A stretch of DNA of 64,000 bases from Ostreococcus lucimarinus (lineage: Eukaryota), in NCBI GenBank assembly GCA_000092065.1, contig CP000586.1. One strand, given 5' to 3'. Below, in pieces: positions 13,138 to 57,285 of this stretch. The number at the start of each line of letters is the position of its first letter. Within the stretch, counting starts at the first letter, position 1. Under the pieces are notes generated by a model. That model saw nothing but the letters and a program-made list of their open reading frames with translations, did not search any database and was not told where the DNA came from. A program made the translations under genes and the position numbers.

Positions 13138-13896
13138 TTAAGGCACGCTCGCCGCGAGCGCCTCTTCTTCTTGCGCGCGGAAGGCGCGGTGGGAACGCCG
13201 CGCCGCTCGTGCCTTGCTCGCTGAATCCCAATCGACGATGACGAACGTCCACGACAAGCTGTGCGCGCACGCGCACGTCAGCCACATCCAGTACCCCCAC
13301 CCGAGATAGTCGACGAACGCATCCTTCGCGATATAGCTCGGCATGTCGGCGCGCACGCGAGCGACGAGAACGGCGTACGAGACGCACGCGATGATGCACG
13401 CGATTTCCGCAAAGCCGCCGTACACCGCCGCCGACGTCGACGCGAATCCCGCCTTCGCCCGACGCCGTCGAATGAAGTAAAAAACCTCACAAACCAATTC
13501 CATCGCGCCGTAAAAGATGAATCCCACCGCGCAGGCGCGCGTCAGCTCTACGAGACTCATGTGATTACCACCGAAGACGTCGCCGTAAAACTCGCCGATC
13601 TCCGTCGAGCACTGACGAGAATCGCGCCCGAGTCCCCGAAACGACGTCTCCATCTCGCGCCACCAACGAGTGATGCTCGATCGATCGAGTCGACGCGCAT
13701 CGATGTTCGAGAAGTGATAGCACACGCGCCAGAGCCCGGCTCGAGAGATTCCCGGCAGCGCGCGCGCGGGCCGCTTCGGCTCCAGCCACTGTTCACTACA
13801 CAAGGAAACCACCGCGAACGCGAGCGTCAGCGCGCGCCACGCGGAGAACCGAACGAAGAACGCGACTCGATAGAATTTCCACCAGTCTCGGCGCAT
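13138..13896 (-). CDS. Four-TM membrane protein of unknown function.
   Basis: Four hydrophobic helices (WWKFYRVAFFVRF..., AVGFIFYGAMELV..., AAVYGGFAEIACIIACVSYAVLV, YLGWGYWMWLTCACAHSLSWTFVIV). The start is ambiguous: ATGs at 13896 and 14019; the track M at 14217 is TTG. Confidence 0.45.
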   Translation of the reverse strand: MRRDWWKFYRVAFFVRFSAWRALTLAFAVVSLCSEQWLEPKRPARALPGISRAGLWRVCYHFSNIDARRLDRSSITRWWREMETSFRGLGRDSRQCSTEIGEFYGDVFGGNHMSLVELTRACAVGFIFYGAMELVCEVFYFIRRRRAKAGFASTSAAVYGGFAEIACIIACVSYAVLVARVRADMPSYIAKDAFVDYLGWGYWMWLTCACAHSLSWTFVIVDWDSASKARAARRSHRAFRAQEEEALAASVP

Positions 13897-14017
13897 CGTT
13901 TCGAGCGCGTCTCGGCGTCGCGCGTCCCGGCGTCGCGGTGTGACGACAGTCTCGGCGACGCCACGCGGTGACTGTTCGTATTTCACAACCACCGAAACGT
14001 CACCGCGCGACGCGCGC
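13897..14017. promoter_or_regulatory. Putative bidirectional promoter between the 4-TM protein and the WD40 gene.
   Basis: 121-bp GC-rich spacer between divergent start codons. Inferred from gene arrangement only. Confidence 0.3.
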
Positions 14018-27964: not shown

Positions 27965-30900
27965 TCACGCGTCGATGTTTAAGACGCACGCGACGCCGCG
28001 TAAGATCCACGCGCTCGCGTGCTCGCTCGAGGCCAAGTCGGCTTGGAAGACGAGACCGCGACCCATGGCGTCGCGACGACTTTGAGTGAAGTACACGGGC
28101 GCTTTGAAAGCGTTCGTTGTCGATGAGGAGGAGGAAGAAGAGGGCATCGTGGTGCGTTCTATCGGGACGAGACGCAGGATGGGGAGCTCGCGCGCCAAGC
28201 CGCGGTCGCTTGGATGCGCCAGGACGCGGCGTTCGGCGTCCCAAATCGCGCCTTCGAGAAATAAACCCGAGATGTAACAGCCTATCTCGGGTTTGGCGTC
28301 GATTTCATCCGCGGAAACGTACGGGGTGACTTCCGTATACATCGTGCTCGCGTCTAAAGGCCAACCACGAGAGCGACACGCGGTTTGAATGAGTGCCGCG
28401 ATGTACGTTTCCGGGCAGTGTAAACCGCTGAGCCAGATGACTTTTGGTTCGCCGTCGACGGCCCACGACTTGTACTGCTTCTCCCGCGTCTTGTACCACG
28501 TCATCCAAGATTGTACGTCTTTGTCTGTCGGTGGCGCGACACTTTTCCACTCCTCCGGTAAGCGCCCGCGCGAGAGTGAATCCGCGACGGCGTCGAGTTC
28601 TCGCGACATGCCGATTTCCCCACTCAGCGCCTTGACGAGCTCTCGCAACGAGTGTCGAAGCACCAGCTTTAACGCGTTGTGACGCTCAATCTCCTGGAAG
28701 AGTACCACGGTCGTCGGCGATGGAACTTCATCTCCGCGCTGACGCTGGAGTTTTATCAAGTCAAACTCGAAATCTTCGTTCGTGACGACGTTTAAGATTT
28801 CGTTGACGATGGCGAGCAAGGCGCCGTTTCCATCGCTCGAGCCAGCGCTCTCGTCGTTCGACGAAGCCGAAATGGAGAGTTTACTCTGGAGCGATAAGAC
28901 GTTAGACCATAACGCTTTCGCTGCTCGTGTAGAGTGTGCGACGTCTGCGTTGGCGTGAAGCCCGAGTACTTCAGGTGTCTGCGCGTCTGGAAGTTCATCG
29001 ATGACGCGCGATTGCTCGTCGTACGAAGATTCCGGCGGCGGCAACTCATAACGAACTCGAGCTTCTTCGTCGGCGTAAAACATGAACTTGTGAAAGCCAT
29101 CAAATAAGAAATCGCCAAAGTACTCGTCCAGATACGCGCTCAAGATACGTCGATCGTAATGATCGCTCACGCGTCCACCGTACATGGCCTCACCTATGAG
29201 ATATTTCAACGCCGCCCACGGAATCATTCTCGAGCCGCCGCCGCCGGTGTTCACGGCGGCAACTTTGTTACAATAAGTCTTGATCAAACTGAACGAAATT
29301 CGAAAATCGGTTTCGTTGAAATCATACGCAACGTTCCATCCGAGCTTACCGTACTTTCGTCGCTCTTGCACGGCAGCGTGGAAGAAGGCCAGCACGTACG
29401 CTAAAGATCTAAAGAAAGGGTTCGCGCAACTCCCCAAGACGTCTTCGGACAATCTCGCGTACGACGCCTTCATGTTCATCTTGAGCCCGTCGGGGGGTTC
29501 TGTGACAACTTTGAGACTTTTTTGCAGAATACCGATCGGGAACGTTTTGATCGGGTCGGTGGTGAGCCACAAACGGAAGTCTTTGTGCGGGTTCGCCAAT
29601 CCGTCGACGACTTTTTCGAGCGCCGGCAGCCATTTGGGGAGAAGATGACAGTTTTGCAACATGAGCCACAAACCTCGCGAGGCGCACGTAAGAATAAGTT
29701 CCTCGGCTTTAGGTCCCATGCCTTGCCCAAGGGCCATGAACTTCAGTTTGCCTCCTGCCTTGAATCCCATCGTTTCTCCCAACGCAAAAATATCAAACGC
29801 CGGATCTGCGCCAGGGGAGAGAATGAACACCACAGGTGTCTGCGCGGAAGACAATTTAAATATGCTTTCGTAGTCTGAAATCGGAGGCGTTACGTATCTT
29901 GAACCCATGGTTTCAGTGATGTAGTTCGACACCGCCACCGTGACTCGATCTAATCGAGCGCAACGCAACAAGCATAGGCGCTCAAAACTGGACAGCGACG
30001 CCGAGTAACCATCTGGAAGCGCTACGGATTCGGGTTGTTCGCAGTCGTACCATGCGCGCCACGCATCGGCGTTGGACGTGATTCGATCGACGATTCCGTT
30101 TAGTGTTGCGCACTTGTCGTCATTAGCCGCGATGTGCTCGTCTAAATGCATTAAATCTTGCCAACCACGTTCGGACCACCATGGAAGCGGTTGCGAATCC
30201 CCGGAGGCGGCGTCAAGCGTGACGTTGCCCTTGAGGAAGAATCGTAGGAGGTTGCCATTCAATCGTCCATCACCGTCTTCGATTCTCGTAGTCATTTGAA
30301 ACGAAAGCGCGAGTTTATCGCGCTTGAACAAACCGAGACATGCAAATTTGTACACGTCGTACGTCAACCTATCCACAAGATCACTCAAGCGCTCGTCCAG
30401 TTGATCGCGCACGGGCGTGACATGAAGCGTGTTGCAGAACACATCCAAAAAGCTCGAAAGTGAGTACTCGTACATCGCGTTGAGATTAGAGAGCGCTGAA
30501 ATGACGAAGAAGAGTATCGCGCCGCGCTTTGCTACGGGAGAGTAGCACGACTGTGCCTTGTTTAACTCTTTCGCCGAACGCGCCGCCGCCACGAGCTTTT
30601 CAGAAATCTCTGTAGACTTTGTCTTCGCGCTCTCGAGTGTTTCGATGAGCTCCACGTTATCAACGATTTCACCCTGTGCGGTGGACAACTCATAAAGCAA
30701 CGTGTCTTCGAGTTTCTTCAACAGTGCTCGATTCGCGACGGTTTCCTTGACGAGTTTTTCTCGCTCTGTTTCAAGATCTGGGCGCTCTTGCTTCACCGTG
30801 ACATTCAAAAGTTGCTCTTGGAGCCCGAGCTCAGTGACAGAGTAGTTGATTATAATCGTTTTACCCGTCACATCTGGATCGTAATGGGGATTTGGAAGTT

Positions 30901-33900
30901 TCGTCGTCATGTACAGGCGGAAGTTGTCGTCCCACTCAACTTCAGAATCGCCAAGCTTGATCATCTTCGCTCCGTTTGGAGCGTAGTAGAAACTCTTCTT
31001 CAGCACCGGGTCCAAAACGGGATCAATGTACTCGCCCACGTTTTCTATCAAGAATGGTAAACCATATTCAATGGCGAGCTCGAGTTGTTTCAAAAAGTCT
31101 GCGTCGGTCTGACGTTTAATCTTACCTTCGAGCTGCGCGCCCTCGCGAGATTTGATCCACTTTACCGCTTGCATCTGCGGATCGATACACAGCGGGAATC
31201 GCTCGGCGCGCATGGTGAGTATACCGTTTTGTACGCTAAGCTCATCACCTGGCAACCCTTCGGCGAGCCAAGAATTCATTTCGTTGTCATCTGTGAGTAA
31301 CGCTTGGAGTCTGAATGGTTGACTCAACGGTATGCCGAGCTCCAGCAAATTCTTCTCAAGATGATCGTGAACGAATTGTTTACGAAACTCGTACGTAAAC
31401 GTTCCAGCGTACGACAAGAACGCGGAAGTGATCAAACAATCGCCAACAAGTCGCTCTTTACGGGAATTCAGTTCTTGCATCTCATTCGTCCATCTGACCT
31501 TTTCGCTCGACAGTCCCGAGATGAGTCGTTCGGCGGCGGCGAGACGGTTCGCCATTAGCTCGGCACTTTCCTTCAAGTCTTGCTGACGCGCGCTCTTCTC
31601 TTCGAACTGCGTGCTGAGTTGCTTTAGCTCGATCTGTAAGCTCTTTAACTCAGACTTCGTTTCAACCAATTCGCGTTCTTTAATCTTCAACGTCTTCTCC
31701 GCGTTTGCGACGGCGGCGCGCTTTGGATTCACCATGCGAGCAACTTTGTTGTAATTAATCATAGCAAACACCCATTTCAGCAGACCGGCACCAGCAGTCG
31801 AAATCTTCATCACTTCATCGGGCTTGAATTTTGAGTCTTTTGTGTACTCGCGAATGGCTTTCATCTGTTTTTCTTTGATGCCATCCTTGTCAAACTCGAC
31901 GAGAGATCTTAAGAAATTTGTATCTGCCATCATGCCTTTCGCTCCAGACCACGAGACGTTCGGCAGTCCTTTGAGAATCATCACACATTCACATACTCGC
32001 TGAACCGCGATGTTTGGCTTAGAAAACGATCGGATTTCGGTAATCTCGTCCTTTTTCAGATTATTCAACGCCGCGGCGGCTTCTTCGAGAGCAGGGATTG
32101 CCGCCTCTAAGTCTGCCTCAGCTTCCGTCTTTTCCTTCGCGATACGCGCTGAATCATTGATGAGATCTTCTTCTTTACTCGTTGCGTTAGCTGCTTTAGT
32201 TTCGACTTCCGCCGTGCGCTTCGTGATGCGATCTAGTAAAGCATCACACTCCTTCGCTTGCTGCGTGACGACGATTTGCGCGTCGTTGAGCTTCGTCCGC
32301 ATTGCGTCCACTTCGGTGCTCGCCTGTATTAATTTGTCGAGACCACCACGCAAACGTTTGATTGAAGTTTCAATTGACGCGCGCTGCGTCTTAAGCATTG
32401 CTTCATAGGCGGCGATAAAGTCCAAATAATGCTTCGGAGTGACGTAGTTGTGTCTCTTCAGCTGTGATTTGAACTTTTCGTTGAGAGCAATCGCCGAGCA
32501 GTGCGTGTGCACGACGTGCACGTTAATCTTCTCCGCGAACTGTTCTGGCAAATCTACGTTTATGAGTAATGAAGTGCTTACTTCGAGCAATGCTTCTTTC
32601 GGCCATTCTGTGAACCAGTCGATAACAGTGTTGTTCACCAATCCGGGGAAGTTTCTGCAACGGTGACGCAACGTATCGCCGACGGGAGACATGGCGAGGA
32701 CGATGTGCAAGTTCTTTCGGCAACGCGAAATAAAGTATCGCCAACCTTCATCGCGCGTGACAGAAATTTTATTCGCGTGCAAATCGTCACGAATCGCATT
32801 CACCAAAGCGTCCTTCTCTTCATCGGCGAACAACGCGGGAACCGTACCCGTGGTGAGCATGTTGTTGATTAACTCCAAAAATCCTTCCTCAACGACGTGG
32901 TTGTCGGTGAAAAGAAACATCGTGGGATGATTTTGCACCCCAAGTACGTTGTATAGCTTTTTCAAGTCCTCCCTGAACGACTCATCGTTGTAGCCACGCG
33001 TCAGCGTGATCTCAAACACTTCACAACCCGCCATATCAGCGGCGAGATGCGCGAGCGATTGTTTGCCGCTTCCGCCGACGCCGACGAGAAGCGCATGTCC
33101 ATTTTCTGTTCGAAGTACGCGATGAATACGCGTGATATGCTCTAGCGCATGATCAAACAAGACTAGTTTAGTCGGTGCTGAGCCATCGCTGAGTTTGGCG
33201 TTACGACGATTGATGAGGTCCTCGAACCAAGGTTTGATGGTGGCGTAATCGCCAACGTCAGCGTACGAGCGTAGTCGACTAGAAGGATCGACTTCATCTG
33301 ACGATCCACTTCCATCGATTTGTTTTAGTGGACTGTAGTCGGCGAATAAAATCGGGTTGGATGTGATCGGCGAAGTGTCATCAGTACACCCATGGCGAAT
33401 AAGTGACGATACTTTTCCCAGTACGAAGTCGCGATCTTTGTCCGCAATCAACCTATCGTGAAACACGCGAATCGATTCGTTTCGCCACAGGCGCAAGAAA
33501 TCTGGGGTGTTTCGAACTTTTGCTGACGTCGCTTTCGACATGCCCTCGAACAAGCGACTTAAGTCGCGAAGGTTAAAGATGTAATGAAATCGGCTCGGCG
33601 TCGGCAAAAGTTTGGAGACGACGCTCTTATATAAATCCAAAGTCATATCTACGACGAGTTCGTGCGTCCCGGGCTTGAGAGCCAGCGTTTTTGACGTATT
33701 CGTTATGATTGAACCATAAATTACCTTAAGATTGGTCTCATCCGGGGTCTGCATTTCGAATACTTGGAACATTGAAACAAAGCGTGGGTCCACAACGCTT
33801 CGTGCGCCGCCGGGATGCCCCATGGCTGCGATGTACTGAATATCCTTCATCTGCAGCCAATTCAAATCACGTCCGCGGTCGTACGTGCCTCCACGGCCAA

Positions 33901-36900
33901 TCATGAGTTTTAGCAACGCGATTGGTTGTTGCGTACCGTACTTATCGACGGCAGGCATGTTCAAATCGTCCACGAAGCACAATAAACGCTTGCCGACGGG
34001 TGGACCCACCGTGTCCTTCGTGCGCTTGTCCAGCACATCCATGAGCGAGCTATGCACATCATTTGCGGTCGTACGAGAACTGAAATTCATCGTCACCGTG
34101 TTCGTCTTTCCATCTTGCAATCTCTTTTGTAAATAGTTCTTCACGACAACAGTTTTACTTGTTCCGCTATCGCCGGTGAGAAGCGTATGCGCGTCACAAG
34201 AGCACATGAGGTCGATTAACCAGTTTGTGCGAACCGTGTGCGCGGTTGAAACCAAGAGCGACGAAAATGGAGTGTTTGGTGGCACCTCGAGTGGAGTGGT
34301 GAGACTTTTCCATTCGTACCACGTGTTACGAGTGATATCAAAGCCATAATCATACAACGTCGCGCCCGCCGGCAAAACGTTGCCGAAATTGGCGAGTCGC
34401 CTAACGAAGTCATCGAATCTCGCACGATCAGAGTTTCCAGACGTTTCAACGATAGTCGCACCGAATGACCACACTAAGCAGAAGATAAAAGCCGATTCGA
34501 TCGCCCGAACGTAGTCATCATCCTGGCTCGTCTCCACGTCGCTGGTGGAGTCATCGAGAGCTTCCAAAAAGCTTTGCATCAAAATGGTGAACTGTTTTAC
34601 CACAGATATCACCGGTCGATCGATCGACGTTCGCACGATTGAAATCATTCGCCCGTCAAGTTCTGTGCCGTCGTAGCAAAATGCCGTCATTCTATCCATG
34701 TACTTGTCAAACATACGCAATAACGTTTCGCGGTGCTTGGCGCCGACACCTTCGGACCAAGTCTTGAGGAACGGTTTGAAGCCGAGATTCTTGGGGTCTA
34801 CGTACACCATTCCGCAACGACTTACAGTGGCTGGAGAAGCATACTTTAAGTCGGCCACCTCAAACAAAAGCTTGCAATGGTCTTGAAGACGAATCCGCTC
34901 ACCGTTTGGCAACGTCAGTAGGCGATTATCGTCCATTACGCTATTCATATTTTCGACCCAAACTGCGTCGACATCGCCATCAAATACTATATACTTGAAG
35001 TCGTTCTCACGTCCAATAGCCATCGGTTTGTTGCACTCGCGAAAAATATTCGAAAGAAGACCATCAGTCCAATCTCGCGTATCCGGATCCAATTCGCCAT
35101 AGAGTTCGGCCACCGTTTGCGCTTTTGGATTTAGAGTGTACAACTTCGTATTTCGACCCATCGTAGTTTGCGCGCGAGCGATTGTTTCAAGCATGACAGA
35201 CTTACCTCCACCAGTCTCGCCGACTAACATCGTCGTATGCCTCGTCAACATAGTCTCATACAACTGAATAATTTTGTCCACTTGCTCGCCCGGGCGCGTC
35301 AACACTTGATAGCCATGCTTGGCCAAGTCTTGTTCAATGACATCGTTGAGAGTAGGATATCGAACACGCGGGCAGTCTAGTCCAGGGAATAAATCGGCGA
35401 TCAGACCCAAAAAGAGTGGGACATCGTCGAATACAAACTTTGGCAGATTCATATCCCTCAACGCTCGCATGAGAACTACCTCTTCGGCGAGCTCGGGCGC
35501 ATCGCGCTTCAGCGCGCCAGCCATGACGAGCACCGATTTAAGCGCGCGTAAACCGAAATCATAATGCGATCTTTTGCTAAGTTGCTCTTTAGCCAGGCGG
35601 TACAGTATCGTCATCTTCTTCGCGAGAGCTTTCGCCGCGTTGAAACCTTCGCTAAAGAGCATAATTTCACAAATTTGCTCCAAATCCGGCACAATCATAG
35701 TAACGGGGCGGAACAGAGCCTTCAAGTTATCCGGAAGTTCGGTTCTACCCGCATACCCAGGATTCATAGTGATGAAAATACCGGTGCGTGCGTCGCAATT
35801 GATTTCTTTTCCTTCAAACTGGAATCGTGACAAATTGTGCTTCAACGCTTCTTGAATCTGCTTAATTTGCGATGAGACGACGGACAGCACCTCAGCCTCA
35901 ATGCGATTGAACTCATCGAAGCATCCCCACGCGCCGCACTGCACAAGACCACTAAAAATGGCCCCCATAGCTTTGTAGTCTAATCCTTCACCACAATTGA
36001 ACACGACGCAAAGCAAAGCCATGGACTTTGCCAAATCCTTTGTGGTCTCCGTCTTTCCTGTGCCCGCGGGCCCGCTCGGGGCACCGCCGAGTCTATACGT
36101 CAGCGCCGTAGTGAGCGTGATATAGCAGCGGTCAGTTAGACCAGTGATTACGAGACGCCCATTCAAACCCATGTACTCGTAACCATATCTGAATTCACCA
36201 CTGCACTGATTGATGACGATGTCGTCGCGTGCCTTGTCCCACTTGAAACGAAGTTGCGACTCCCACGCAAAATCTGACTCATCTAAAACAGAATCTCTAA
36301 CGAAAGAGTCGATGATGTCTCGCGCGTGGACGTCAATGATGATCAACGTATTCACTTTTTTTCGTTCGCACGAGCTAAGCTCGCCTCGAACCATTTTCGT
36401 GAGAACCTCGAGTTGCGACGAGAGCTTGTCGCTGTAATTCCGCATGGCGAGTTTATCGCCCGAGCGAATCGATTTGAATACGTTTTGCACTTCCCAGGTC
36501 CACCAAATTTGCGACCCCACAAGGGTGATCATTCCAAGCTGTTCTTTTATCCATTCTTCACGATCGCACGTCATGTATCGCGCGACTCCATACTTGCACA
36601 ACGCGCGTAAGGTTGCCCGCATCTCTTCTTCGACGGCAGACATCCAATCCTCAACAGGGCCTTGAATTTTTACGGGCGACTTGAACTTGAACGATTCCCC
36701 CTCTGCGGACGTAATCCCGACTACGCACGCTTTATCAGACGTAAACGTCAGCTTTGCACAGTTGTCAAACAGCTTCAACATGTGCTCCTGAATTAGTGTC
36801 GGATCGGCAGCACCTAAAATTGAAAGCAGCTCCTCGTCGGAGATGAAGAAGAAGCGCGGAAACGCGTCCCGCTTTGTGTCTAAATATTGACTCAAACTCT

Positions 36901-39900
36901 TTTGACATATCTCCAGCTCCTCGCGAAGGTTCTTCAGCGTTTCTAAGCGCCCTTCGGATTTGCACATGTCTAAAACGAATTTAGTCTTCACAGTTTCCGC
37001 CATGAGTTTGCGTATTTCAGTATCGATGTTGTCAAAACGATCAGCTTCCTCAGGAAGCTGCGTGCGTATGTCGTCTGAGCCACCAAAAATGCTGAGTAAG
37101 TACATCCAACGTTGCTGCGTGTCGATCCACACCTGTAGAACATTGGCCACTAATGCGAGCGTTCCTTCCCACTCGCGCACGCTTTCGATGAGCGGATCAG
37201 CATACCGACTTGCCGACATACTCTGCAAAGTTAATCCCGTGTCTTCGAGCGCGAGCGTAATTTCTTCCACGGCGCAAAGCACGTACGTGGGCTGCGCGTG
37301 CTTCTTGCTTTTGCCTTTGGAGTAAGGTCTAAGATCAAAGCGCATTTCTCGCCATGATCGATCGATCGCGATTAAGTCGTTTTCAATTTTTAGCTCCTTC
37401 TCTGCCGCCGCTGTAATGTCCATGATTTTTTGCGCGTGCGCGTGAAGTTTCATCTCACTCAAGTGTCGCATCGAGAGTTGCGCGCTCTTTACGGTTTCGT
37501 CGTCAAAATCAACAGTCTGAAACACAGACTTCCAGTGACGAGGTCGAATTGCATCAACTTTCAAGCTTTCGATGAGGTTCAAATCAGTTTCGATGTCGTC
37601 AATTTCTTCCCGGACAGCCGCAAAGAGGCGATGCGAATGAAGACTCTTCGGAAGCGTCGAGAGCTGCGTTCGACCAAAAGCCACGACAGAGGCGTACACG
37701 TTCGCGACGACCAACTCTGGAACGAGCGTTTCGTAAAATTGTCGCAACTGACCTCGATACGCTCGTTGACATTCGTATATCTTTGCCATGGAATCCAAAT
37801 CAGTTTTTGCTTGCTCAAGCGATTCAAACGAGCATTGATCGACGCCAAAGACGCGCTCACTGTCTCTAATATCGGCCAATGCATCCAATCTACCGAGAAT
37901 TTCTTCTTTAAACGTCTCAAAACTTTCGAAGCCGGCGTCTAAATTTAGCAAAAGATCGGCGCATGTCGGGCCTTCAGCCTTGAGCCTGTTCGCGAAGCCA
38001 TCACATTCCTCCTGAAATAGGCGCGCCGTTCTTTTCAGTTCCGTCTTGAAGTCTGAAATCTTCAACGTCATGCCTTCGTAAACACGTTCGGCGCGCGCGC
38101 GGAGCTTTTCAAAAGATGGAATCGTCGCCGATGCGCGCTCAAGATCAGAGGGATCGTGTTCTATCCTGTATTTCATTCTCACGGCAAATCGATCGTTCAC
38201 TCCACTTGCCGTCACTTCGGTCGCGGTGTTTTCGCGCACATCTCTGACCGTCTTTACCAGATTCTTCATGGTGAGGAAATCACGTGCGTCGACTGAAAAT
38301 GTATTCTCGCATGCCGCCATGTGCTCGTAAAGGTCATTCAGGAGTTTGACGTCAGCATGATACGTCGCGGCACCGATGTCTTTGATCCACTGAGCGCTCT
38401 TGTTCTTAATGAGGGTGGTCAATTTGTCGGCTCGCACCCGCACAGCGCCGATGTCCACGCTCGCGTCCTCATCCATGGCTTTCATGACGTCCTCGTATCT
38501 AAGTAAAGCGCGTTGAAGACTCAATGCGTTCATATTTTCCGTATGTTTTTCGATCACGAGATCTTTGTCGTCTTTCCACACGGCTTGGTATCGCTTCCAC
38601 ACTTCCATCTGGCGGCGGATTTCACCCGCAAAGAGATGTGAGACGTTGCTCAAAGAGCTCATCGCGTCGCACACGCGTTCGTTCGCTGAAACCTCATTCC
38701 CAAAGTTGAACGCATGAGTCACCGTGTTTGATGCGTCATCGTCGAGTTCTATGGCAAGTAAAGTGGAGAGGCTCAAATCTGAGCTCGAAGTTGCTCGCCG
38801 CGTGGGCATCCCCACACAAGTGCCGTCCATCCATCGGCCGAGCACTGAGGCGGCATTTGCAATGGATTTCGCCGCGTATGCAATGGATCGAATGAGCTCT
38901 TTCAACGGCGGTTCGCACACGATTTCTCCCGCTCGCAGAGTTATATTTAGTTTAAACAGAGTGATGTTCGAAGGGAGCGACTTGTCAAAATACTCCCTTA
39001 ATCGAAGAATGTTCCGCTCCGCAGCGAGAACGAGAGCGTCGTAAATCTCGCTCTCCCAATAGGCATAGTATTCCCTCAAATGCACAACCTTCCCGGTGCG
39101 TGTGCCGAAAACGATTTCTTCGACACAAAGCAAAAGATTCATGATGTTGACGTATTCCTCTCGCACTACCGAAGCCGTTTTGCTGCATTGCGCGGCGAGT
39201 TGAGCGAACAGTTCGCCGCTTTCGCGCTCAACGCCGGATTTTGACAGTGCTTCACAATCGACGAATGATGAGACCGAGATCTTTTTCACTGACCGCTCTA
39301 GATCGCCAGCGTGCGTTCGCACGCCATCTATAACAGTTGTAAAGTCCTTAAGTTCCGTTGTGTACGCCGCGACAAAGTCAGGAATACCCAAAGAGTTCCA
39401 ATTATACGTCTTCAGTCCTCGATGAAGAGACGCGCTATTCAGTACCGCCACGCGCGTGCGGAAGAGTTGACGCTCCAGTGGTGACAGTGAATCGAGTACG
39501 TCGCGACGATGAGCGAGCATTTTACTAAGCGTGCATCTATAAGCGCTGTATTTTTCGCTTTGCAATGCCACGCCACGCGCCTCTGCTGGGATGTCGAAGC
39601 CAAGTCGTTCCAGATTTCGAGTCTCCTTGATTAGGCTTGTGAGCGCTGGGTGGAAATTCATAATCACGTCGTCCCCACTCTCATTCTTCGATAATATAGG
39701 TTGCATAAGGCATGATGTCAAAGTAGAGTCTATTTCTTCTTTCCAAGTTAACACGCGCTGCTTCTCGTAGTTCATGATAAGTTTTGCCAAGGCTAAAAAC
39801 TTTGCGTTCACCTCTTGCGCCGCCGGCGTGTCGCGAATACCTCGTTGATCCTCGACGCACGCGTTGAACGATTTCATGGTAACTCGCAGCTTGTAAAACA

Positions 39901-41905
39901 GTGATCTTACCCAATGAATCGATCCACTTACGGTTGGTTGGTCGCGATTGAGCGGTGGTGAGCGGCGGTGACTGTTGAAGATGTGCCGGGTCGAATCGAT
40001 CTCGCGAGAAAATTGCTCAAGGACGTCTTGCATCTTGCCAAGAATTTGACTGTTTAGTGTCATACGCGTCGATCCAGACAGTACTTCGTCGTCGTCCGCG
40101 TGCATTGTACTTTTCAGCTCTTGAACGAGCGCGAACGCTCCCGCACTACTGCGCAACCTCTTGAAGCATGCGTCGATGAAGTTACACAGCGCGCGTTCGA
40201 TGCGCGTCTTTTCCATCACGAAAGACTTGTGCATCGCCTTCCAACTCGCTGCGTTCGCCGAGTCGAAGATGTCTAGCTGCGACATTTCAATTGTAAGGCA
40301 AAGCGCATCCACTCGCGCAGAGATTTCGTCCACGCCGTCGGCATCGAGAGTCACTGCTTTGAGACGCGGACTGAGAAACGTGCGGAAATCACTCACTACG
40401 ATAACCATTTCGCTGAATTCCGCACAAACGTCCGCAACGTAATCCGACTTCATGAACAAGCGTTCGCGATCAAACTCCCACCTTGAATCCCTATTTGAAC
40501 GTTCGATTTCTTCTCGCGCGTTCAAATATTCGCTCTTCCAAGATTCCATAATCGACTTTGAGAGTTGTACGTCGCGCAACGTGGCGTGCGCCCCAAGTCC
40601 GCTCGACGCTTGGGCAAACAGTTCCTGGTAGTTTACCGATTCGCGAACACGATGAATGAGCGCATCTGACAGGCGTTCTAATAGGGAACCCATTCGAGAG
40701 TCGTCACTGTAGTGGTGCGAAATTACCCAAACCATTCGAAGTGCGCGAAGCGTCGGCGCGATGGCGCGGAGCACGTCCGGCAACAGCGCCTCACTCAACA
40801 CTTTGAAATGACTCTCGAGCGTGGACAAAAACTTGATGTTGTCAGCACTCACGCTGTGTAAGTGTGTGATTTCTCCCAAGAGCGTTTTAAACGCCGACGC
40901 GACGTTGCGCACGCGAGACGAAAATTCATCGACAGAAGCAGTGTGCTTCGCCGCAAATCGTTCCAGCACGTCCAACACAATGTCCATGCTCGGATCGGAG
41001 AGCTGCGTCACCAAACCTGACAAGTCGTTATGTCGCGCGCGCCACAGACGAATCTCCACTAGCGGTCCTTCGTTTGCCCCTGCACATTCTTCCGTGATCA
41101 CGCTTTCGCTTTCGTTCCTCGTCTTCGCCGCCGACATCACCGCGCACCACTCAACCGCCGCAGCTTCGAGCTGACGCACGAAAGCCTCGTCTTCACACGC
41201 CTTGGCGGGATCGATGTCGCAGAGTGCACGACCCGACGCCCCGCCCGCCTTGACGACGCTTTTCAGTGACGCCTCTGGACTCTGAACTGGGGCGTTTACG
41301 CCTTGAATCCCATCCAAAAACTCCCGCACATGCTTCGCAAAGGATTGACTCTCCGTCGACGCACTCGACTCGAACGCGGATACGAATGAGCACTGTAAAG
41401 TCGCGTGAAGCTCGTCCATCGACGCCCCGTGCGGAAGGAAGCCGTACATCGCACTCCGCAAATCATCGAGTCCGATCGAATTTTCGTCGTTCACGCAGTC
41501 CGGACGCACGATGAACAACACAGGCTGTTTTGGATCGCACTCGCCGTCCGCGACGAGCTCGAGCCGAGGTCGCCGAGGCGAGTCTTCCCGCGCGCCTCCA
41601 TCACTCTTGACGACGCCGGCGTTCGTCGAGTCCGCGAGCGCGTGCGAAGTGATGGAGGACAACGTGAGTCCATTCATCGTCTTCGCCCTCGCTTTCACCG
41701 TCGAAGTCGCGCGAAGCCGCAGCACGAGCACGTCCTCGCGTCCGCAATCGAGAAAGTCCAAGGTCTTTGCGCGCGAACCGTCACCGAACCCCACGACGTG
41801 TTCGTCGATGTCGGCGTCGACGCACGACGATGCGAGACGAAGTATAAAGGCGACGCGCGCATCTGGTTCCTCGGCGCCATCCTCGCCGTCGTCTGCGCAC
41901 GTCAT
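27965..41905 (-). CDS. Dynein heavy chain, axonemal type (inner-arm I1/f-like size class); single ~14-kb exon, 4,646 aa.
   Basis: AAA1 P-loop '[33 protein letters not shown]...[12 protein letters not shown]' (axonemal signature, not the cytoplasmic 'TESVKAL'). Further P-loops 'GETGGGKS' and 'GVGGSGKQS'. Stalk coiled coils and a canonical C-terminal domain are present. The track M1 (41938) is TTG; the first ATG is at 41905. Confidence 0.9.
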   Translation of the reverse strand: [4646 protein letters not shown]

Positions 41906-42028
41906 TCCGCGTCGAAGAATGCGCGACGACGCACGCAAAGACCTTGGACTTTGCTTTGACTGAGAAAAAAGACGATTCGGCTAAAAATAAAACACGCACT
42001 GCATTCAGCGACGTGCGGCGCGCGGAAG
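41906..42028. promoter_or_regulatory. Putative bidirectional promoter shared by the dynein heavy chain and the RIIa-like gene.
   Basis: ~120 bp between divergent ATGs. Inferred from arrangement only. Confidence 0.3.
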
Positions 42029-42631
42029 ATGATTGAAGAATTGGAAGCGTACGCGAAGGAGAGCAAAGTGGATGATTTATTCCGGGATATGATGACTGGG
42101 TGTTTCAAGAAACGACCGAGCGCGCCGGTGACGTACATCTTGGAGTACCTCGCGAGCGAGTACCCAGAGGAGAGTTTGACGCACGCGCGCGCGTTCGTAG
42201 ACTTGAAGGATGGGATCACGAGCGCGAACGTGGCGGTGGACGAAGACGAAGACGGCGCGCACGATGTTGTCGTTGAAGATATCGATGAAAAACATGAGAT
42301 CGTCGAGGCGCCGCTGACGTCACCCAAGGACGTCCCCGCGAAGGCGACCGACGTCGTCGCGGAGGCGATCGAGGACGTGGCCGTTGAGGGCGAGATATTA
42401 CCGGACGAAGCACAACATCTCATGGCGCCAGAGGAGGGCGCACACGTCGACGTCGTCGTCGATAAGCCCGATGAGCGCGTCGAGGAGTGCGAAAGTGTCG
42501 CCGAAGAGCCCGTCGACGCGGACGCAGGTGAGGAAGAGCAAAAAGAAGAACCACCCGTCGTGACGCCCGCGAGTGAGGAAGCTGTCGAATCGATTACGAA
42601 TGCGGAGAACGTGGAGGATGCACCAAACTAA
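42029..42631 (+). CDS. RIIa/DPY-30-like dimerization-docking domain protein with a long acidic tail.
   Basis: N-terminus 'VDDLFRDMMTGCFKKRPSAPVTYILEYLASEYPE' follows the RIIa pattern (hydrophobic spacing ...F..E.L..QP.D...FA..YF..L). The remainder is Asp/Glu/Val-rich. Confidence 0.45.
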   Translation: MIEELEAYAKESKVDDLFRDMMTGCFKKRPSAPVTYILEYLASEYPEESLTHARAFVDLKDGITSANVAVDEDEDGAHDVVVEDIDEKHEIVEAPLTSPKDVPAKATDVVAEAIEDVAVEGEILPDEAQHLMAPEEGAHVDVVVDKPDERVEECESVAEEPVDADAGEEEQKEEPPVVTPASEEAVESITNAENVEDAPN

Positions 42632-43989
42632 ACTAAAGCGCTAATGCTATCTAAAACGCGTTTCACCGCGCGTTTGTCGCTCAAGACCGTCAACGCGGGT
42701 CTGTACCGTTTTAATAAGTTCAACTCGTCCTTGCTCAAGTCGCCGATTTCCTCGCCCCCGGCTCGATGTTCATCGCGATCAAACTCACTCAAAATTCGTC
42801 GAGCGACTGCGTCGCGATCGTCGTCGACGTTGATCCATGCGTAGCGCGATTCGCCGCGAAACCACGTGAATTGACGTTTCGCGTACGCGCGATTGAGCAT
42901 CTGAATCTCATTCACCAGCTCCAATAACGACGCGTCGTCGACTTTGATCTCCTTCGCCCGAGCCTTTGCCAAGTACTCCATCGCCTGCCGGTAACCGATG
43001 GACCGCGCCGGGACGTTTTCTCCCGGCGCGATTCCAGCATTCAATAACCACGCGGCTTCATCCATGATTCCATCTACAAACATACCCTCCACGCGAGCGT
43101 CAATTTTTCGATACAGCTCGACGCGCGGCGAAGATAAAAAGAAACATCTAAAATCAAACCGCGCCTCAGGATTCTCGCGCGCGAACGCCTTGACGCTTTG
43201 CCCGCTCGTGCGCACGATTTCGTACGCTCGCGTCAATCGATACCAATCGTTTTCGCTCAGCGTCTTCCCCGTCTCCGCATCTCCCGCGCGCGTCAACAAC
43301 TCCACGGCTTCGCGCCACCCCCCCCGCGCTCTCGCCTCGCCCACGGCGCGTTCCGCCGCCTCTCGCGTCTCTGGCGTCGACCCCGGCGCGCTAGGTTTCC
43401 CATCCGTCAACCACTTCAAATACATCCCCGCACCGCCCACGACGACCGCATCGCGCCCTCGTCGATGTATATCGTCGATCACGTTTACGGCTTCGTCGTA
43501 ATACGCGTTCGCGTCGTACTCTCCACTCCCATCTCTCGCGCGCGGATCCAGCGCGCTCAGCATGTGATGCGCGCACGCTTCGAGCTCCCGCGCGCCCACT
43601 TTCCCCGACCCGACGTCTAATCCGCGATATATTTGCACCGAATCGCACGACACGATTTCAACCTCGCGCGCGTCTCGTCGCTCTCGTCGCGCGCGCGCCA
43701 TGGCGATCGCGACCGCGCTCTTCCCGATCGCCGTCGGTCCCGTGACGACGAGCACCTTAGCGCGCCGCGTCGCGCGCGCGATTCCGTCGTCTCCCTCGCG
43801 CCCTGGATCAACGTCGCGCGCGCCGTTCGCGTCGGCATTCGCACTCGCACTCGCATTCGCATTCGCATCGACGCGCGTCGTCGTCGTCGCGCGTCGTCGT
43901 CGTCGCGGCGCCCCGCACGCGGTCCAGCGTTTCGTCGCGCTCGCGCCGATGCGCTCGAGCCACGTCCGCGCGCCGCACGCCGCGCGCAT
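42628..43989 (-). CDS. tRNA dimethylallyl(isopentenyl)transferase (MiaA/TRIT1/IPT family) with an N-terminal presequence.
   Basis: 'VTGPTAIGKSAVAIAMA...EIVSCDSVQIYRGLDVGSGK...HHMLSALDP...VVVGGAGMYLKWL' matches the MiaA/TRIT1 P-loop and DSMQVY motifs. ATG at 43989. Confidence 0.8.
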   Translation of the reverse strand: MRAACGARTWLERIGASATKRWTACGAPRRRRRATTTTRVDANANASASANADANGARDVDPGREGDDGIARATRRAKVLVVTGPTAIGKSAVAIAMARARRERRDAREVEIVSCDSVQIYRGLDVGSGKVGARELEACAHHMLSALDPRARDGSGEYDANAYYDEAVNVIDDIHRRGRDAVVVGGAGMYLKWLTDGKPSAPGSTPETREAAERAVGEARARGGWREAVELLTRAGDAETGKTLSENDWYRLTRAYEIVRTSGQSVKAFARENPEARFDFRCFFLSSPRVELYRKIDARVEGMFVDGIMDEAAWLLNAGIAPGENVPARSIGYRQAMEYLAKARAKEIKVDDASLLELVNEIQMLNRAYAKRQFTWFRGESRYAWINVDDDRDAVARRILSEFDRDEHRAGGEEIGDLSKDELNLLKRYRPALTVLSDKRAVKRVLDSISALV

Positions 43990-44033
43990 CGTTCCACTCG
44001 CCGCCGCGCGCGCGTCAGAGAGTGACGCGCGGC

Positions 44034-45443
44034 ATGGACGTCGACGACGACGACAGCGACGACGACGGCGCGCGAGCGCTCGCGAGCGCGCGTCCGACGC
44101 TGTGTTACCCGGGTCGGCTGACGTCGCGCCGAGAGTCGCGCGCGTTCGCCGACGCCGGCGCGCGCGGCGCGCACAAGGTTGGCGGCGCGCCGGTGGCGCT
44201 GACGGCGGACGGCGACGACGACGGCGACGACGGCGACGACGACGGCGACGCGGCGACGCGGTGGTACGCGCCGCGGTGCGCGTCGTGCGCGCGCGCGATG
44301 ACGCTCGTCGTGCAGACGTACGCGCCGAGAGGAGGTCGCGGACGGGCGCTGTACGCGTACGCGTGCGTCGGCGGCGGCGCGGCGTGTCGAGGAGACGACG
44401 CGTGGGCGTGCGTCAGCGCGACGTCGATCGCGGCGCGCGCGGACGCGAGCGAAGAGCGCGGGCGCGATGGCGAAACCACGACGCGCGACGGCGGTGGCTC
44501 GCGCGCGCGCGCGACGAACGGCGTCGAGACGTACGGGACGGCGGAACGCGCGCCGGCGATGGAGGACGCGTGGGACGATCCGGAATCGAGCGCGTGGTGC
44601 GACGACGGCGCGGACGCGGCGGCGCTGAGCGCGGAATTAGATGCCATGTTGGTGTGCGGGGTAGGGCGCGCGGAAGGACGCGCGGAAGGGCGCGCGGAGG
44701 CCGCGATGACGCCCGGCGACGAGGACGAAGACGATGGCGATGGCGACGACGACGCCGCGAGACAAGAAGACGGTTTTTCTTTGTCACGGATCGTGCGCGA
44801 GGCGTACGACGCGGCGTGCGCGACGCAAATAGTAGAATACCACCTCGTGTCCGAGATTGAGCCGAAAGCGGTCAGCGGGATGACGGTGAAGGAAGCGGCG
44901 CACGCCGAGGCGCTCCTGGCGCGATACGCCGAACGCGAAGGCGTCTCCGTGACGGACGTCGTCGCCATCGATGACGAGGATGGCGAGTGGGCGGGAGAGA
45001 CGTACGAGCGTGGCGAAGCACGACATGCGGATGATGCGTATTTAAAGTTCGCCCGCCGTCTGCAGCGCGCGCCTGATCAGTGCATGCGATACGACGTCGG
45101 CGGCATGAAGTTCATCTGGCCGACGAAGACGCCGCCACCGTCAACTTCGTGCGATCGCTGCGGCACCACGCGCGTGTGCGAGCTTCAACTCACTCCGGCA
45201 CTTTTGCGAGACGTTGAAGATGCGTTGTCGATGCACAAGGGCGATAAATCGCGCCTCGCGAGCGAAGAGGATCTCTTGGGCTGGGATTGGCAAACCGTCT
45301 GCGTGTTCGCGTGTCCAAACGACGCGTGCGTCGTCCCATCCACCGACGTGCATCGGAACGTCTCGTACGCCCTCGAGCGCGTCTTCGTGGCCGAGAGTGA
45401 GGCGCCTGGGGATGCCCTGCTCAAAGCCACTCGCGCGTCCTAA
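44034..45443 (+). CDS. PDCD2/Tsr4-family protein (PDCD2_C domain; no MYND finger).
   Basis: N-terminal 'YPGRLTS...KVGGAPV...RCASCARAMTLVVQTYAP'. C-terminal 'MRYDVGGMKFIWPT...CDRCGTTRVCELQLTPALL...DWQTVCVFACPNDAC' parallels the human PDCD2 'ILRYGRGG..PLWIS...CPCGAKRILEFQVMPQLL...DWGILAVFTCAESC'. ATG at 44034 (the track start is GTG). Confidence 0.7.
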   Translation: MDVDDDDSDDDGARALASARPTLCYPGRLTSRRESRAFADAGARGAHKVGGAPVALTADGDDDGDDGDDDGDAATRWYAPRCASCARAMTLVVQTYAPRGGRGRALYAYACVGGGAACRGDDAWACVSATSIAARADASEERGRDGETTTRDGGGSRARATNGVETYGTAERAPAMEDAWDDPESSAWCDDGADAAALSAELDAMLVCGVGRAEGRAEGRAEAAMTPGDEDEDDGDGDDDAARQEDGFSLSRIVREAYDAACATQIVEYHLVSEIEPKAVSGMTVKEAAHAEALLARYAEREGVSVTDVVAIDDEDGEWAGETYERGEARHADDAYLKFARRLQRAPDQCMRYDVGGMKFIWPTKTPPPSTSCDRCGTTRVCELQLTPALLRDVEDALSMHKGDKSRLASEEDLLGWDWQTVCVFACPNDACVVPSTDVHRNVSYALERVFVAESEAPGDALLKATRAS

Positions 45444-55942: not shown

Positions 55943-55991
55943 AACGAAACGAAACGCGATGAAACGCAACGCAACGCAACGCAACGCAACC
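55943..55991. repeat. (AACGC)n / (GAAAC) pentanucleotide microsatellite in the sugar-porter 5' region.
   Basis: 'aacgaaacgaaacgcgatgaaacgcaacgcaacgcaacgcaacgcaacc' read directly. Confidence 0.8.
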
Positions 55992-55998
55992 AACTCGA

Positions 55999-57285
55999 CT
56001 AGGAAAAATCTGACATGATGCTTGGATCCCTACAACGCTCGTGCACGCGATCGATCTCGACGAGCGTCTCTTCGCTCAAGACGATGTCGGGCCCAAACGC
56101 ATCGATGTTCTCCTTGAGCTGGGTCATGGAGGTGGCACCGATGATGGTACTGGAGACGTAAAATCGCGATTTACACCACGCCAACGCGAGCGTCGCGAGC
56201 GTTACGCCGGCTTCGTCGGCAATCTTCTTATACTCCGCCGTCGCGACTCTCGATGGGTCGTTCAAATACCGCTGATGGAAGCCGTATTTCGCGTACTTGA
56301 CCAAGCGACCTTCAGCTGCGTTCGAAGCGCCGTCCAGGTACTTTCCCGTCAACGCTCCGCCACCCAAGGGCGTCCACGGAAGAAGACCTATGTCGAAGTT
56401 TGACGGCGCGCACGCCTCGGCGAGTTCGGTTTCGAAGCCGCGATGTAACAAGCAGAACGAATTCTGAATCGACACCGGTCGAGGTACGCCGAGTTCATCC
56501 GCCGCGCGAACGAACTCGCACACTCCGAATGTGCTTTCGTTCGAGAGGCCGTAGTGCTTGATTTTCCCAGCCTTTATGAGCTCGCCGAGCGCCTCGACGG
56601 ATTCGCGAATCGGCACCGCGTCCGCTCTCTCGAGCGCGGGATTGTATGCCGGCGACCCAAAAAAAGCCCCAATGGGGACGTATCGATCGGGCCAATGTAT
56701 TTGGTATAAATCTATATAGTCCGTCTGTAATCGCGCCAAACTTGCATCGCACGCGGACTTGATCGATGCGCGATCTAATCTCCCCGTAGCCGTCGTCTCT
56801 TCGCGACGCCTATTGCCGACGATTTTCGCGCTCGCGCCGAACCCAGCAATCTTCGTCGCCAGCACGACATCTTCGCGCACGGCGCTCGAATTCTTCGCCA
56901 ACCAAGACCCAATAAACTTCTCCGTCGTTCCCGGCATCCAACTCGGATCACTCATAGGGACCGGGTACATCTCCGCGGTGTCGATGAAGTTCACGCCTCG
57001 TTGTTTGATGGCGTAATCCAACTGCTCGTGCGCCTCGGCTTCGGTGTTTTGCACGCCCCACGTCATCGTCCCCAGGCACGCGTCGGTCACGGCGATGCCG
57101 CTGTGTCCCAATCGCGACGTTCGAGGCAACGGCGCATCGCTCGTCGTCGTCGCCGCCGCCGCCTTGACGGTCGAGCGTGCGGACGACGACGGCGACGACA
57201 GCGCGTGGTGTCGTCCTCGCCGTCGACTCGCGACGCGCGTCGTCGTCGTCGCCGCCGCCGCCGTCGTCGTCGTCGTCGCGCGCAT
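55999..57285 (-). CDS. Aldo-keto reductase, Tas-like (NADPH-dependent), with a poly-Thr/Ala organellar presequence.
   Basis: 'LGTMTWGVQNTEAEAHEQLDYAIKQRGVNFIDTAEMYPVP' is almost identical in pattern to the E. coli Tas 'LGTMTFGEQNSEADAHAQLDYAVAQGINLIDVAEMYPVP'; 'LQTDYIDLYQIHWPDR' follows. N-terminus MRATTTTTAAAATTTT. Confidence 0.85.
   Translation of the reverse strand: MRATTTTTAAAATTTTRVASRRRGRHHALSSPSSSARSTVKAAAATTTSDAPLPRTSRLGHSGIAVTDACLGTMTWGVQNTEAEAHEQLDYAIKQRGVNFIDTAEMYPVPMSDPSWMPGTTEKFIGSWLAKNSSAVREDVVLATKIAGFGASAKIVGNRRREETTATGRLDRASIKSACDASLARLQTDYIDLYQIHWPDRYVPIGAFFGSPAYNPALERADAVPIRESVEALGELIKAGKIKHYGLSNESTFGVCEFVRAADELGVPRPVSIQNSFCLLHRGFETELAEACAPSNFDIGLLPWTPLGGGALTGKYLDGASNAAEGRLVKYAKYGFHQRYLNDPSRVATAEYKKIADEAGVTLATLALAWCKSRFYVSSTIIGATSMTQLKENIDAFGPDIVLSEETLVEIDRVHERCRDPSIMSDFS

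What the first reader, a model, noticed from the sequence alone, without database searches (positions are those of the whole stretch)
42620..42640. Convergent genes with overlapping stop codons (CTAA): the RIIa-like gene and tRNA-IPT share their last nucleotides
The plus-strand TAA (42629-42631) and the minus-strand TAG (complement of CTA, 42628-42630) overlap within the 4-mer CTAA. Each gene's entire 3' UTR is therefore antisense to the other's coding sequence. This obligate convergent transcript overlap implies mutual antisense regulation, or unusual termination/polyadenylation.
Basis: seen in the sequence. Interest (0 to 1): 0.5.

Follow-up and report, generated by a model that had tools for sequence, protein, structure and literature searches.

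The report
Convergent genes sharing overlapping stop codons
Two genes on opposite strands of the tiny marine green alga Ostreococcus lucimarinus really do end inside each other's stop codons, but this is the extreme end of a genome-compaction pattern already known in this group, not evidence of special antisense regulation.

Summary
The + ORF 42029-42631 (200 aa) ends in TAA at 42629-42631. The - ORF 42628-43989 (453 aa, tRNA isopentenyltransferase) ends in TAG, the complement of CTA at 42628-42630. The window is Ostreococcus lucimarinus CCE9901. Both ORF ends are real: the IPT C-terminus is conserved to its last residue in every lineage examined, and the other ORF stays open through in-frame indels. 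The same convergent pair occurs in all Ostreococcus-like lineages fetched, with stop-to-stop distances of -4, 0, +1, +2, +9, +13 and +31 nt. The other nine convergent pairs in the window have 43-137 nt. Opposite-strand transcript overlap is already reported for Ostreococcus and Micromonas. Ostreococcus is reported to lack Dicer and Argonaute, so siRNA-type antisense regulation is unlikely. The best reading is spacer loss through compaction, with 3'-end signals forced into the partner's coding sequence. One new detail fits this: the last 8-10 IPT codons are an AT-rich block of rare codons conserved at nucleotide level across six lineages. They have the composition of a normal 3' flank. No transcript data could be obtained. 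It is a new member of a known kind, of low to moderate interest.

The parts
42029..42631 (+). FAP385-like / RIIa-Dpy-30-type docking-domain protein gene (200 aa; GenBank ABO96627.1 'predicted protein'); stop TAA at 42629-42631
   Evidence: ORF. Exact match to O. lucimarinus CCE9901 XP_001418334.1. PDB profile hit to FAP385 at E=2e-5. Pfam Dpy-30 only E=0.12.
42029..42223 (+). Conserved N-terminal domain (residues 1-65), helical, docking-domain-like
   Evidence: 41 invariant columns in 6 lineages. FAP385, PKA RI-alpha D/D and AK7 hits. The AF2 model is helical but of low confidence, pLDDT 62.6.
42224..42628 (+). Fast-evolving acidic, probably disordered tail (135 codons); its length varies among lineages by in-frame indels and it runs up to the IPT stop
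   Evidence: Alignment. Between the window and L008 this protein is 84% identical while IPT is 99% identical.
42628..43989 (-). tRNA isopentenyltransferase (MiaA/IPT9-type) gene, 453-aa ORF; stop TAG is the complement of 42628-42630. The GenBank model ABO96865.1 is partial and lacks the last 28 codons.
   Evidence: PF01715 at 3.1e-56. C-terminus conserved to the last residue. The partial model P0187 ends at ...GDLSKD.
42628..42631 (.). CTAA 4-mer holding both stop codons (the overlap itself)
42631..42660 (-). Last 10 IPT codons (CGC GTT TTA GAT AGC ATT AGC GCT TTA GTT): AT-rich rare-codon block conserved at nucleotide level. Inferred to serve as the shared AT-rich 3'-end zone of the pair.
   Evidence: GC3 is 0.30 against 0.70 for the whole gene, the lowest of 36 genes. 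Across 6 lineages it has the highest same-codon fraction, 55/63 against 0.51 overall. It has the rarest codons (about 3.4 sd below the mean) and the lowest GC3 (about 3.8 sd below the mean) among 327 windows. The column-permutation result is 35/2000. A GC trough at -20..+10 is present in all 8 lineages.
42640..42654 (-). Core of the conserved block, TTAGATAGCATTAGC (consensus TTAGATAGNATTAGA; on the + strand GCTAATGCTATCTAA)
   Evidence: It is the only close match in the window; the other two matches have 3 mismatches, which is chance level.
42710..42714 (+). TTTAA, the commonest single-base variant of the Ostreococcus poly(A) signal UGUAA. It lies 82 nt from the first base of the plus-gene stop and is made by the rare IPT codons TTA TTA AAA, which only the O. 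lucimarinus clade uses. Candidate poly(A) signal, unverified.
   Evidence: Signal frequencies from PMC6413133.
41939..42028 (.). Short divergent spacer between the dynein heavy-chain gene and the docking-domain gene. It is 90 nt from the TTG-start ORF that ends at 41938, and 123 nt from the ATG-start ORF that ends at 41905.
43990..44033 (.). 44-nt divergent spacer between IPT and the PDCD2_C gene, if the first ATG of each is used

Best explanation
This is a convergent gene pair in the ultra-compact nuclear genome of Ostreococcus lucimarinus whose intergenic spacer has been eroded completely.

The IPT stop sits at an ancient, fixed position. The upstream partner has a barely constrained acidic tail whose stop has drifted until it abuts or overlaps the IPT stop. 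That much is shown.

The following steps are inferred. With no spacer left, RNA polymerase II transcripts of each gene must end inside the other gene's coding sequence. The AT-rich zone that normally follows stop codons in this genome is instead encoded within the last 8-10 IPT codons, through AT-rich rare synonymous codons. In the O. lucimarinus clade, a UUUAA poly(A)-signal variant 82 nt into IPT may also contribute. The resulting 3' antisense overlap is tolerated rather than exploited, helped by the reported absence of RNAi in this organism.
For: - Identity: the organism and both genes are identified.
- Synteny: dynein | docking-domain gene | IPT | PDCD2 | UPF0060 | RING is conserved in every Ostreococcus-like lineage fetched.
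- Drifting distance: the stop-to-stop distances are -4 (window, L007/8, L016, L021), 0 (O. tauri), +1, +2, +2, +9, +13 and +31. The IPT stop stays at the same aligned residue throughout.
- General packing: the nine other convergent pairs in the window have 43-137 nt.
- Normal 3' flanks: GC falls from about 0.58 in coding sequence to about 0.46 in the 60 nt after stops. TGTAA is enriched in the first 50 nt after stops, 6 observed against 0.65 expected.
- AT-rich block: the last IPT codons have flank-like composition and conserved rare codons.
- Contrast case: a distant GC-rich relative, whose IPT faces a different gene across a 78-nt spacer, has normal GC3 of 0.90 in its last 10 codons.
- Literature, O. 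lucimarinus: opposite-strand overlapping genes are described as known in Ostreococcus, and 148 of 1647 O. lucimarinus EST clusters were flagged as potentially over-clustered from such overlaps (PMC2367439).
- Literature, O. tauri: an RNA-seq assembly concatenated transcripts because of overlapping UTRs (PMC4378021).
- Literature, Micromonas: convergent overlapping pairs are described (PMC4815162).
- Literature, RNAi: Dicer and Argonaute are reported absent in O. tauri and O. lucimarinus (PMC4014436).
Against: - No transcript or poly(A)-site data for this locus could be obtained. All fetched contigs are metagenomic, so the extent of overlap and the use of any signal are inferred.
- No canonical TGTAA lies within 300 nt downstream of either stop.
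- The synonymous-constraint signal is modest, with a family-wise permutation result of 35/2000. It is invisible at 30-codon resolution. It rests on one gene.
- The pair is the tightest convergent pair in every lineage. That could also mean the tight arrangement is itself selected.
Confidence: 0.7

Rival explanations
1. The overlap is an adaptive mutual antisense arrangement. Convergent transcription of the docking-domain gene and IPT reciprocally represses them, through transcriptional interference or double-stranded RNA, and so partitions their expression, for example over the day-night cycle.
For: The pair is the tightest convergent pair in all lineages examined and has stayed within 31 nt since their common ancestor, while other pairs keep 43-137 nt. 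Reciprocal regulation has been suggested for Micromonas convergent overlapping pairs (PMC4815162).
Against: - The exact distance is not conserved; it ranges from -4 to +31.
- There is no excess synonymous conservation over the last 30-90 codons of either gene beyond the terminal 8-10 IPT codons.
- No stable RNA structure and no Rfam family is found at the junction.
- Dicer and Argonaute are reported absent.
- The two gene functions have no evident link.
Confidence: 0.12
2. The overlap is an annotation artefact. One ORF end is mis-called, for example because a 3' intron or an earlier true stop or poly(A) site means the proteins do not extend to the CTAA.
For: The GenBank IPT model for this strain is partial and stops 28 codons short. 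The plus-gene tail is poorly conserved and acidic, so an open frame is partly favoured by its composition.
Against: - The IPT C-terminal 28 residues are conserved to the last residue in all 11 loci, and the O. tauri reference model runs to the same stop.
- The plus-gene tail differs among lineages only by in-frame indels, and it keeps a recognisable C-terminal motif (EAVESIT...) within the clade.
- Both ORFs have good coding scores.
Confidence: 0.05
3. The overlap comes from compaction, but the AT-rich rare-codon block at the IPT C-terminus has nothing to do with 3'-end formation. It could reflect translational pausing at the C-terminus, a DNA-level site such as the GATA-like AGATAG, or residual phylogenetic signal.
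For: The block also exists in lineages that keep 9-31 nt of spacer. No specific 3' motif could be tied to it: TAGAT is only about twofold enriched in non-coding DNA. The permutation support is moderate.
Against: No other of the 36 genes in the window has such AT-rich terminal codons. The relative with a 78-nt spacer lacks the block. Its composition matches the ordinary 3' flank.
Confidence: 0.13

Closest known systems
Overlapping opposite-strand genes and transcripts in Ostreococcus: the O. lucimarinus EST study PMC2367439, which cites the genome paper, and the O. tauri re-annotation PMC4378021
   Same: Same genus, and for the EST study the same strain. Convergent neighbours have 3' ends that overlap because intergenic DNA averages under 200 bp. 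Overlap is frequent enough to merge EST clusters and RNA-seq assemblies.
   Different: Those reports concern overlapping UTRs or transcripts in general. Here the coding sequences themselves overlap, stop codon within stop codon. The GenBank annotation hides this because the IPT model is partial.
Convergent overlapping pairs (COPs) of Micromonas (van Baren et al. 2016, PMC4815162)
   Same: Tail-to-tail gene pairs with overlapping 3' ends in a sister genus of the same order. Reciprocal regulation was suggested but not shown.
   Different: COPs were described mainly in the low-GC region and with unusually large 5' intergenic distances (about 900-1250 nt). This pair lies in a normal-GC region (0.61) with 5' spacers of about 44-123 nt.
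[quoted passage not shown] 2005, cited as ref. 10 of PMC2367439; details from my own knowledge)
   Same: Loss of intergenic DNA pushes transcript ends into neighbouring genes. The overlap is interpreted as a by-product of compaction.
   Different: Those genomes belong to parasites or endosymbionts, whereas this is a free-living alga. The paper could not be read here.
Plant and animal cis-natural antisense pairs regulated through nat-siRNAs (general knowledge)
   Same: Convergent protein-coding genes with complementary 3' ends.
   Different: That mechanism requires Dicer and Argonaute, which are reported absent from O. lucimarinus.

Membership tests
Convergent overlapping pair (COP) in the sense used for Micromonas | Two protein-coding genes in tail-to-tail orientation | tested here: met
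   The + ORF 42029-42631 and the - ORF 42628-43989.
Convergent overlapping pair (COP) in the sense used for Micromonas | Overlapping 3' UTRs validated by directional cDNA or RNA-seq evidence | not testable with these tools
   No transcript data were available; the fetched contigs are metagenomic. An overlap of at least 4 nt follows logically from the shared stop codons.
Convergent overlapping pair (COP) in the sense used for Micromonas | Located in the low-GC region with large 5' intergenic distances (about 900-1250 nt) | tested here: not met
   Local GC is 0.61. The 5' spacers are about 123 nt and 44 nt.
cis-NAT pair with siRNA-mediated mutual regulation | Dicer and Argonaute machinery present | not tested
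   I did not scan the genome. The literature states that O. tauri and O. lucimarinus lack both genes (PMC4014436).
cis-NAT pair with siRNA-mediated mutual regulation | Anticorrelated expression of the partners, or small RNAs from the overlap | not testable with these tools
   No expression data were available.
tRNA isopentenyltransferase (MiaA / IPT9 type, PF01715) | Full-length match to the IPPT profile | tested here: met
   PF01715 at 3.1e-56, residues 119-379 against profile positions 1-242 of 243. The best named relatives are O. tauri tRNA isopentenyltransferase and plant tRNA dimethylallyltransferase 9.
tRNA isopentenyltransferase (MiaA / IPT9 type, PF01715) | N-terminal P-loop (GxxxxGKS/T) | tested here: met
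   GPTAIGKS can be read in the translation.
RIIa / Dpy-30 dimerisation-docking domain | Significant match to the Pfam RIIa or Dpy-30 model | tested here: inconclusive
   Dpy-30 gives E=0.12, 12.6 bits against a cut-off of 22. The same region matches in two orthologues. There is no RIIa hit.
RIIa / Dpy-30 dimerisation-docking domain | Homology to a structurally characterised docking-domain protein | tested here: met
   The profile of the N-terminal 65 residues hits FAP385 (7jtk, radial spoke) at E=2e-5. PKA RI-alpha D/D at 0.16, AK7 at 0.22 and DPY30 at 1 follow. The predicted fold was too uncertain to use, pLDDT 62.6.

The most novel reading that the evidence does not exclude
The last 8-10 codons of the IPT gene have been co-opted, throughout the genus Ostreococcus, as a shared two-way 3'-end-formation element. 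In this reading a stretch of protein-coding sequence is held in AT-rich rare codons because it also acts as the polyadenylation or termination zone for the opposite-strand gene, and perhaps for IPT itself. If so, this locus would be a compact, genetically tractable example of how RNA polymerase II termination signals are embedded in coding sequence when intergenic DNA disappears, in an organism without RNAi.
Probability: 0.3. Interest if true: 0.45.

Novelty: new member of a known kind. Interest (0 to 1): 0.25.

Why it matters
In itself this matters little. It documents an extreme case, coding-sequence overlap at the stop codons, of the convergent transcript overlap already known in Ostreococcus and Micromonas. 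It also shows that the public IPT model for this strain is truncated.

It gains some value as a natural test case. The pair has had 31 nt or less of spacer across the whole genus, so whatever signals end these transcripts must lie in coding sequence. The conserved AT-rich rare-codon block gives a concrete, recodable candidate. O. tauri is a model alga, which I know, from my own knowledge rather than from checks made here, to be transformable by homologous recombination, so the experiment is practical.

Tried and rejected
1. Transcript evidence. I looked for short contigs that might be merged convergent transcripts (P0043, P0003, P0040) and scanned JGI contigs for the junction 32-mer. All were metagenome contigs with arbitrary ends, so there is no 3'-end information.

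2. Canonical poly(A) signal. No TGTAA lies within 300 nt after either stop. In some other lineages the IPT stop is embedded in TGTAA, TGTGA or TGTAG. However, 5 of 36 window genes also have TG before their stop, so I do not count this as evidence.

3. A specific 3' motif. TAGAT looked enriched after stops, 9 observed against 0.8 expected. It is only about twofold denser in non-coding than in coding DNA, so I rejected it as a defined signal.

4. Coarse synonymous-constraint test. Bins of 30 codons showed no reduced synonymous divergence at the 3' ends. Only the 8-codon analysis did.

5. RNA family or structure at the junction. The only Rfam match (mir-598, 41634-41699) was far below its gathering score and lies outside the junction. 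The folding z-scores were +1.1 and +0.2.

6. Structure of the docking domain. The AlphaFold model had pLDDT 62.6, so I ran no fold search.

7. Papers. The Palenik 2007 and Williams 2005 papers are not held.

Full report
**What is there.** One search shows ...GCA CCA AAC TAA at 42620-42631. One search lists a + ORF at 42029..42631 (200 aa) and a - ORF at 42628..43989 (453 aa). The minus-strand stop TAG is the complement of CTA at 42628-42630. The two stops therefore share 42629-42630 and the ORFs overlap by the 4-mer CTAA.

**Organism and genes.**
- The window is intron-poor with about 58% GC. It carries a single-exon dynein heavy chain of about 4650 aa next to the pair.
- An exact look-up identifies the 200-aa protein as ABO96627.1 / XP_001418334.1, 'predicted protein', of Ostreococcus lucimarinus CCE9901.
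- The minus gene matches PF01715 IPPT at 3.1e-56. Its nearest named relatives are O. tauri tRNA isopentenyltransferase and plant IPT9.
- The GenBank model for this IPT, ABO96865.1, is 'partial'. It lacks the first 77 and last 28 residues, so the public annotation does not show the overlap.
- The plus gene has no Pfam hit at E<=0.01 and only Dpy-30 at E=0.12.
- A profile of its conserved N-terminal 65 residues hits the 70-aa Chlamydomonas radial-spoke protein FAP385 at E=2e-5. The PKA RI-alpha docking domain (0.16), adenylate kinase 7 (0.22) and DPY30 (1) follow. 'RIIa-like' is therefore a fair label.
- The rest of the plus-gene protein is an acidic tail.

**Are the ORF ends real?**
- I fetched orthologous loci from ten other sources, including O. 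tauri chromosome 6.
- The IPT C-terminus (...LKRYRP.L.VL.D....RV.D.I..L[VI]*) aligns to the last residue in all of them, so its stop is ancient and fixed.
- The plus-gene tail is poorly conserved. Between the window and L008 it is 84% identical while IPT is 99% identical. It differs only by in-frame indels and stays open for 105-165 codons in every lineage.
- A mis-called end or a hidden intron is therefore unlikely.

**Comparative picture.**
- The gene order dynein(-) | docking-domain gene(+) | IPT(-) | PDCD2_C(+) | UPF0060(+) | RING(-) is conserved in all Ostreococcus-like lineages fetched.
- The stop-to-stop distance for the pair is -4 in the window and in three diverged members of its clade (L007/L008, L021, L016). 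It is 0 in O. tauri, +1 (L014), +2 (L013, L022), +9 (L012), +13 (L011) and +31 (L009/L010).
- The pair has been nearly spacer-less since the common ancestor of these lineages, but the exact distance drifts.
- My crude gene map of the window, corrected with the gene calls, gives ten convergent pairs. The other nine have spacers of 43, 50, 60, 62, 67, 74, 114, 131 and 137 nt.
- The finding is the extreme of a tight distribution, not a qualitatively different arrangement.

**What is already known.**
- For O. lucimarinus, opposite-strand overlapping genes are described as known, and 148 of 1647 EST clusters were flagged as potentially over-clustered from overlapping opposite-strand transcription units (PMC2367439).
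- For O. tauri, an RNA-seq assembly was abandoned because overlapping UTRs concatenated transcripts (PMC4378021).
- For Micromonas, 'convergent overlapping pairs' were defined, and reciprocal regulation was suggested but not tested (PMC4815162).
- O. tauri and O. lucimarinus are reported to lack Dicer and Argonaute (PMC4014436). This removes the siRNA route for antisense regulation.
- The O. lucimarinus poly(A) signal is UGUAA (30% of sites), with UUUAA as the commonest variant (PMC6413133).

**3'-end signals.**
- Across the 36 genes in the window, TGTAA is concentrated in the first 50 nt after stops, 6 observed against 0.65 expected.
- GC falls from about 0.58 in coding sequence to about 0.46 in the 60 nt after the stop.
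- The pair studied has no TGTAA within 300 nt after either stop and no spacer to hold an AT-rich zone.
- Instead, the last 10 IPT codons (CGC GTT TTA GAT AGC ATT AGC GCT TTA GTT) have GC 0.40 and GC3 0.30, against 0.70 for the whole gene. That is the lowest terminal GC3 of all 36 genes.
- Across six divergent lineages the same codons recur: TTA GAT AG[A/C/G] ATT AG[A/C]. TTA is 10% of Leu codons, AGA 8% of Arg, ATT 30% of Ile and GAT 42% of Asp.
- Among 327 eight-codon windows of the IPT alignment, this one has the highest same-codon fraction (55/63 against 0.51 overall), the rarest codons (about 3.4 sd below the mean) and the lowest GC3 (0.29 against 0.68, about 3.8 sd below the mean).
- After correcting for amino-acid-specific expectations, its excess is reached by the best window in 35 of 2000 column permutations.
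- A GC trough from -20 to +10 around the IPT stop is present in all eight lineages.
- A more distant GC-rich relative (L024, GC 0.67) has its IPT facing a different gene across a 78-nt AT-richer spacer. Its last ten codons are normal, with GC3 0.90.
- In the O. lucimarinus clade only, the IPT codons TTA TTA AAA create TTTTAATA on the + strand at 42708-42715 (the TTTAA variant is at 42710-42714). This lies 82 nt from the plus-gene stop and is a candidate UUUAA signal.
- These observations are consistent with 3'-end signals having been absorbed into IPT coding sequence, but they do not prove it.
- A coarser test with 30-codon bins showed nothing.
- A tentative TAGAT motif proved non-specific.
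- There is no Rfam family and no unusually stable fold at the junction.

**Interpretation.**
- The best-supported explanation is neutral or compaction-driven loss of the spacer. The unconstrained acidic tail of the plus gene extended until its stop met the fixed IPT stop. Transcript ends are then forced into the partner's coding sequence.
- The step 'AT-rich terminal IPT codons act as the 3'-end zone' is inferred.
- Mutual antisense regulation cannot be excluded without expression data, but nothing here requires it and several points speak against it.
- No transcript evidence could be obtained. All short contigs examined were metagenomic.

**Verdict.**
- It is a new, extreme member of a known kind.
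- The conserved rare-codon block is the only element that goes beyond what is already described, and it needs 3'-end mapping and recoding experiments to be established.

Noticed in passing
window 27965-41938 (-) and 42029-42631 (+): A single-exon dynein heavy chain of about 4650 aa sits head-to-head, 90-123 nt apart, with a homologue of the Chlamydomonas radial-spoke protein FAP385. As far as I know (own knowledge, not checked here), no flagellum has been described for this alga. The pairing is conserved in every lineage fetched, which suggests a shared two-way promoter and perhaps a shared non-flagellar or cryptic function.
   Followed up: partly
window 42628-43989 (-): The GenBank model of the IPT (ABO96865.1, 348 aa, 'partial') lacks 28 conserved C-terminal residues and the N-terminal extension. 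The full ORF is 453 aa. Orthologues are 396-434 aa, so the true start may be a downstream ATG.
   Followed up: partly
window 42224-42628 (+): The acidic tail of the docking-domain protein evolves very fast. It is 84% identical to L008, where the neighbouring IPT is 99% identical. It carries multiple in-frame indels, while the N-terminal 62 residues are identical. The tail looks close to neutrally evolving.
   Followed up: partly
whole window, 36 gene ends: TAG is the commonest stop codon (21 of 36), then TAA (10) and TGA (5). TGTAA clusters within 4-30 nt after stops, which implies very short 3' UTRs for many genes.
   Followed up: partly
window 14018-14019: In my crude gene map, the divergent ORFs 13138-14019 (-) and 14018-15205 (+) overlap by 2 nt at their putative start codons. 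This may just reflect a wrong choice of start.
   Followed up: no
window about 55950-55998, just downstream of the stop of the - gene 55999-57285: A short tandem run of GTTGC units (four in a row, GTTGCGTTGCGTTGCGTTGC) lies about 10 nt after a stop codon in the 3' flank.
   Followed up: no
window 43600-44900: Long Arg-rich ORFs (for example 43700-44860 +, 386 aa, and 43617-44174 -, 185 aa) overlap the real IPT and PDCD2_C genes. They are composition-driven artefacts of GC-rich, Asp/Gly/Ala-rich coding sequence, not genes.
   Followed up: no
L024 6366-6443: In a distant GC-rich relative, the IPT is convergent with a cNMP-binding-domain gene instead of the docking-domain gene. The Ostreococcus pairing is therefore not universal in the wider group.
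   Followed up: partly
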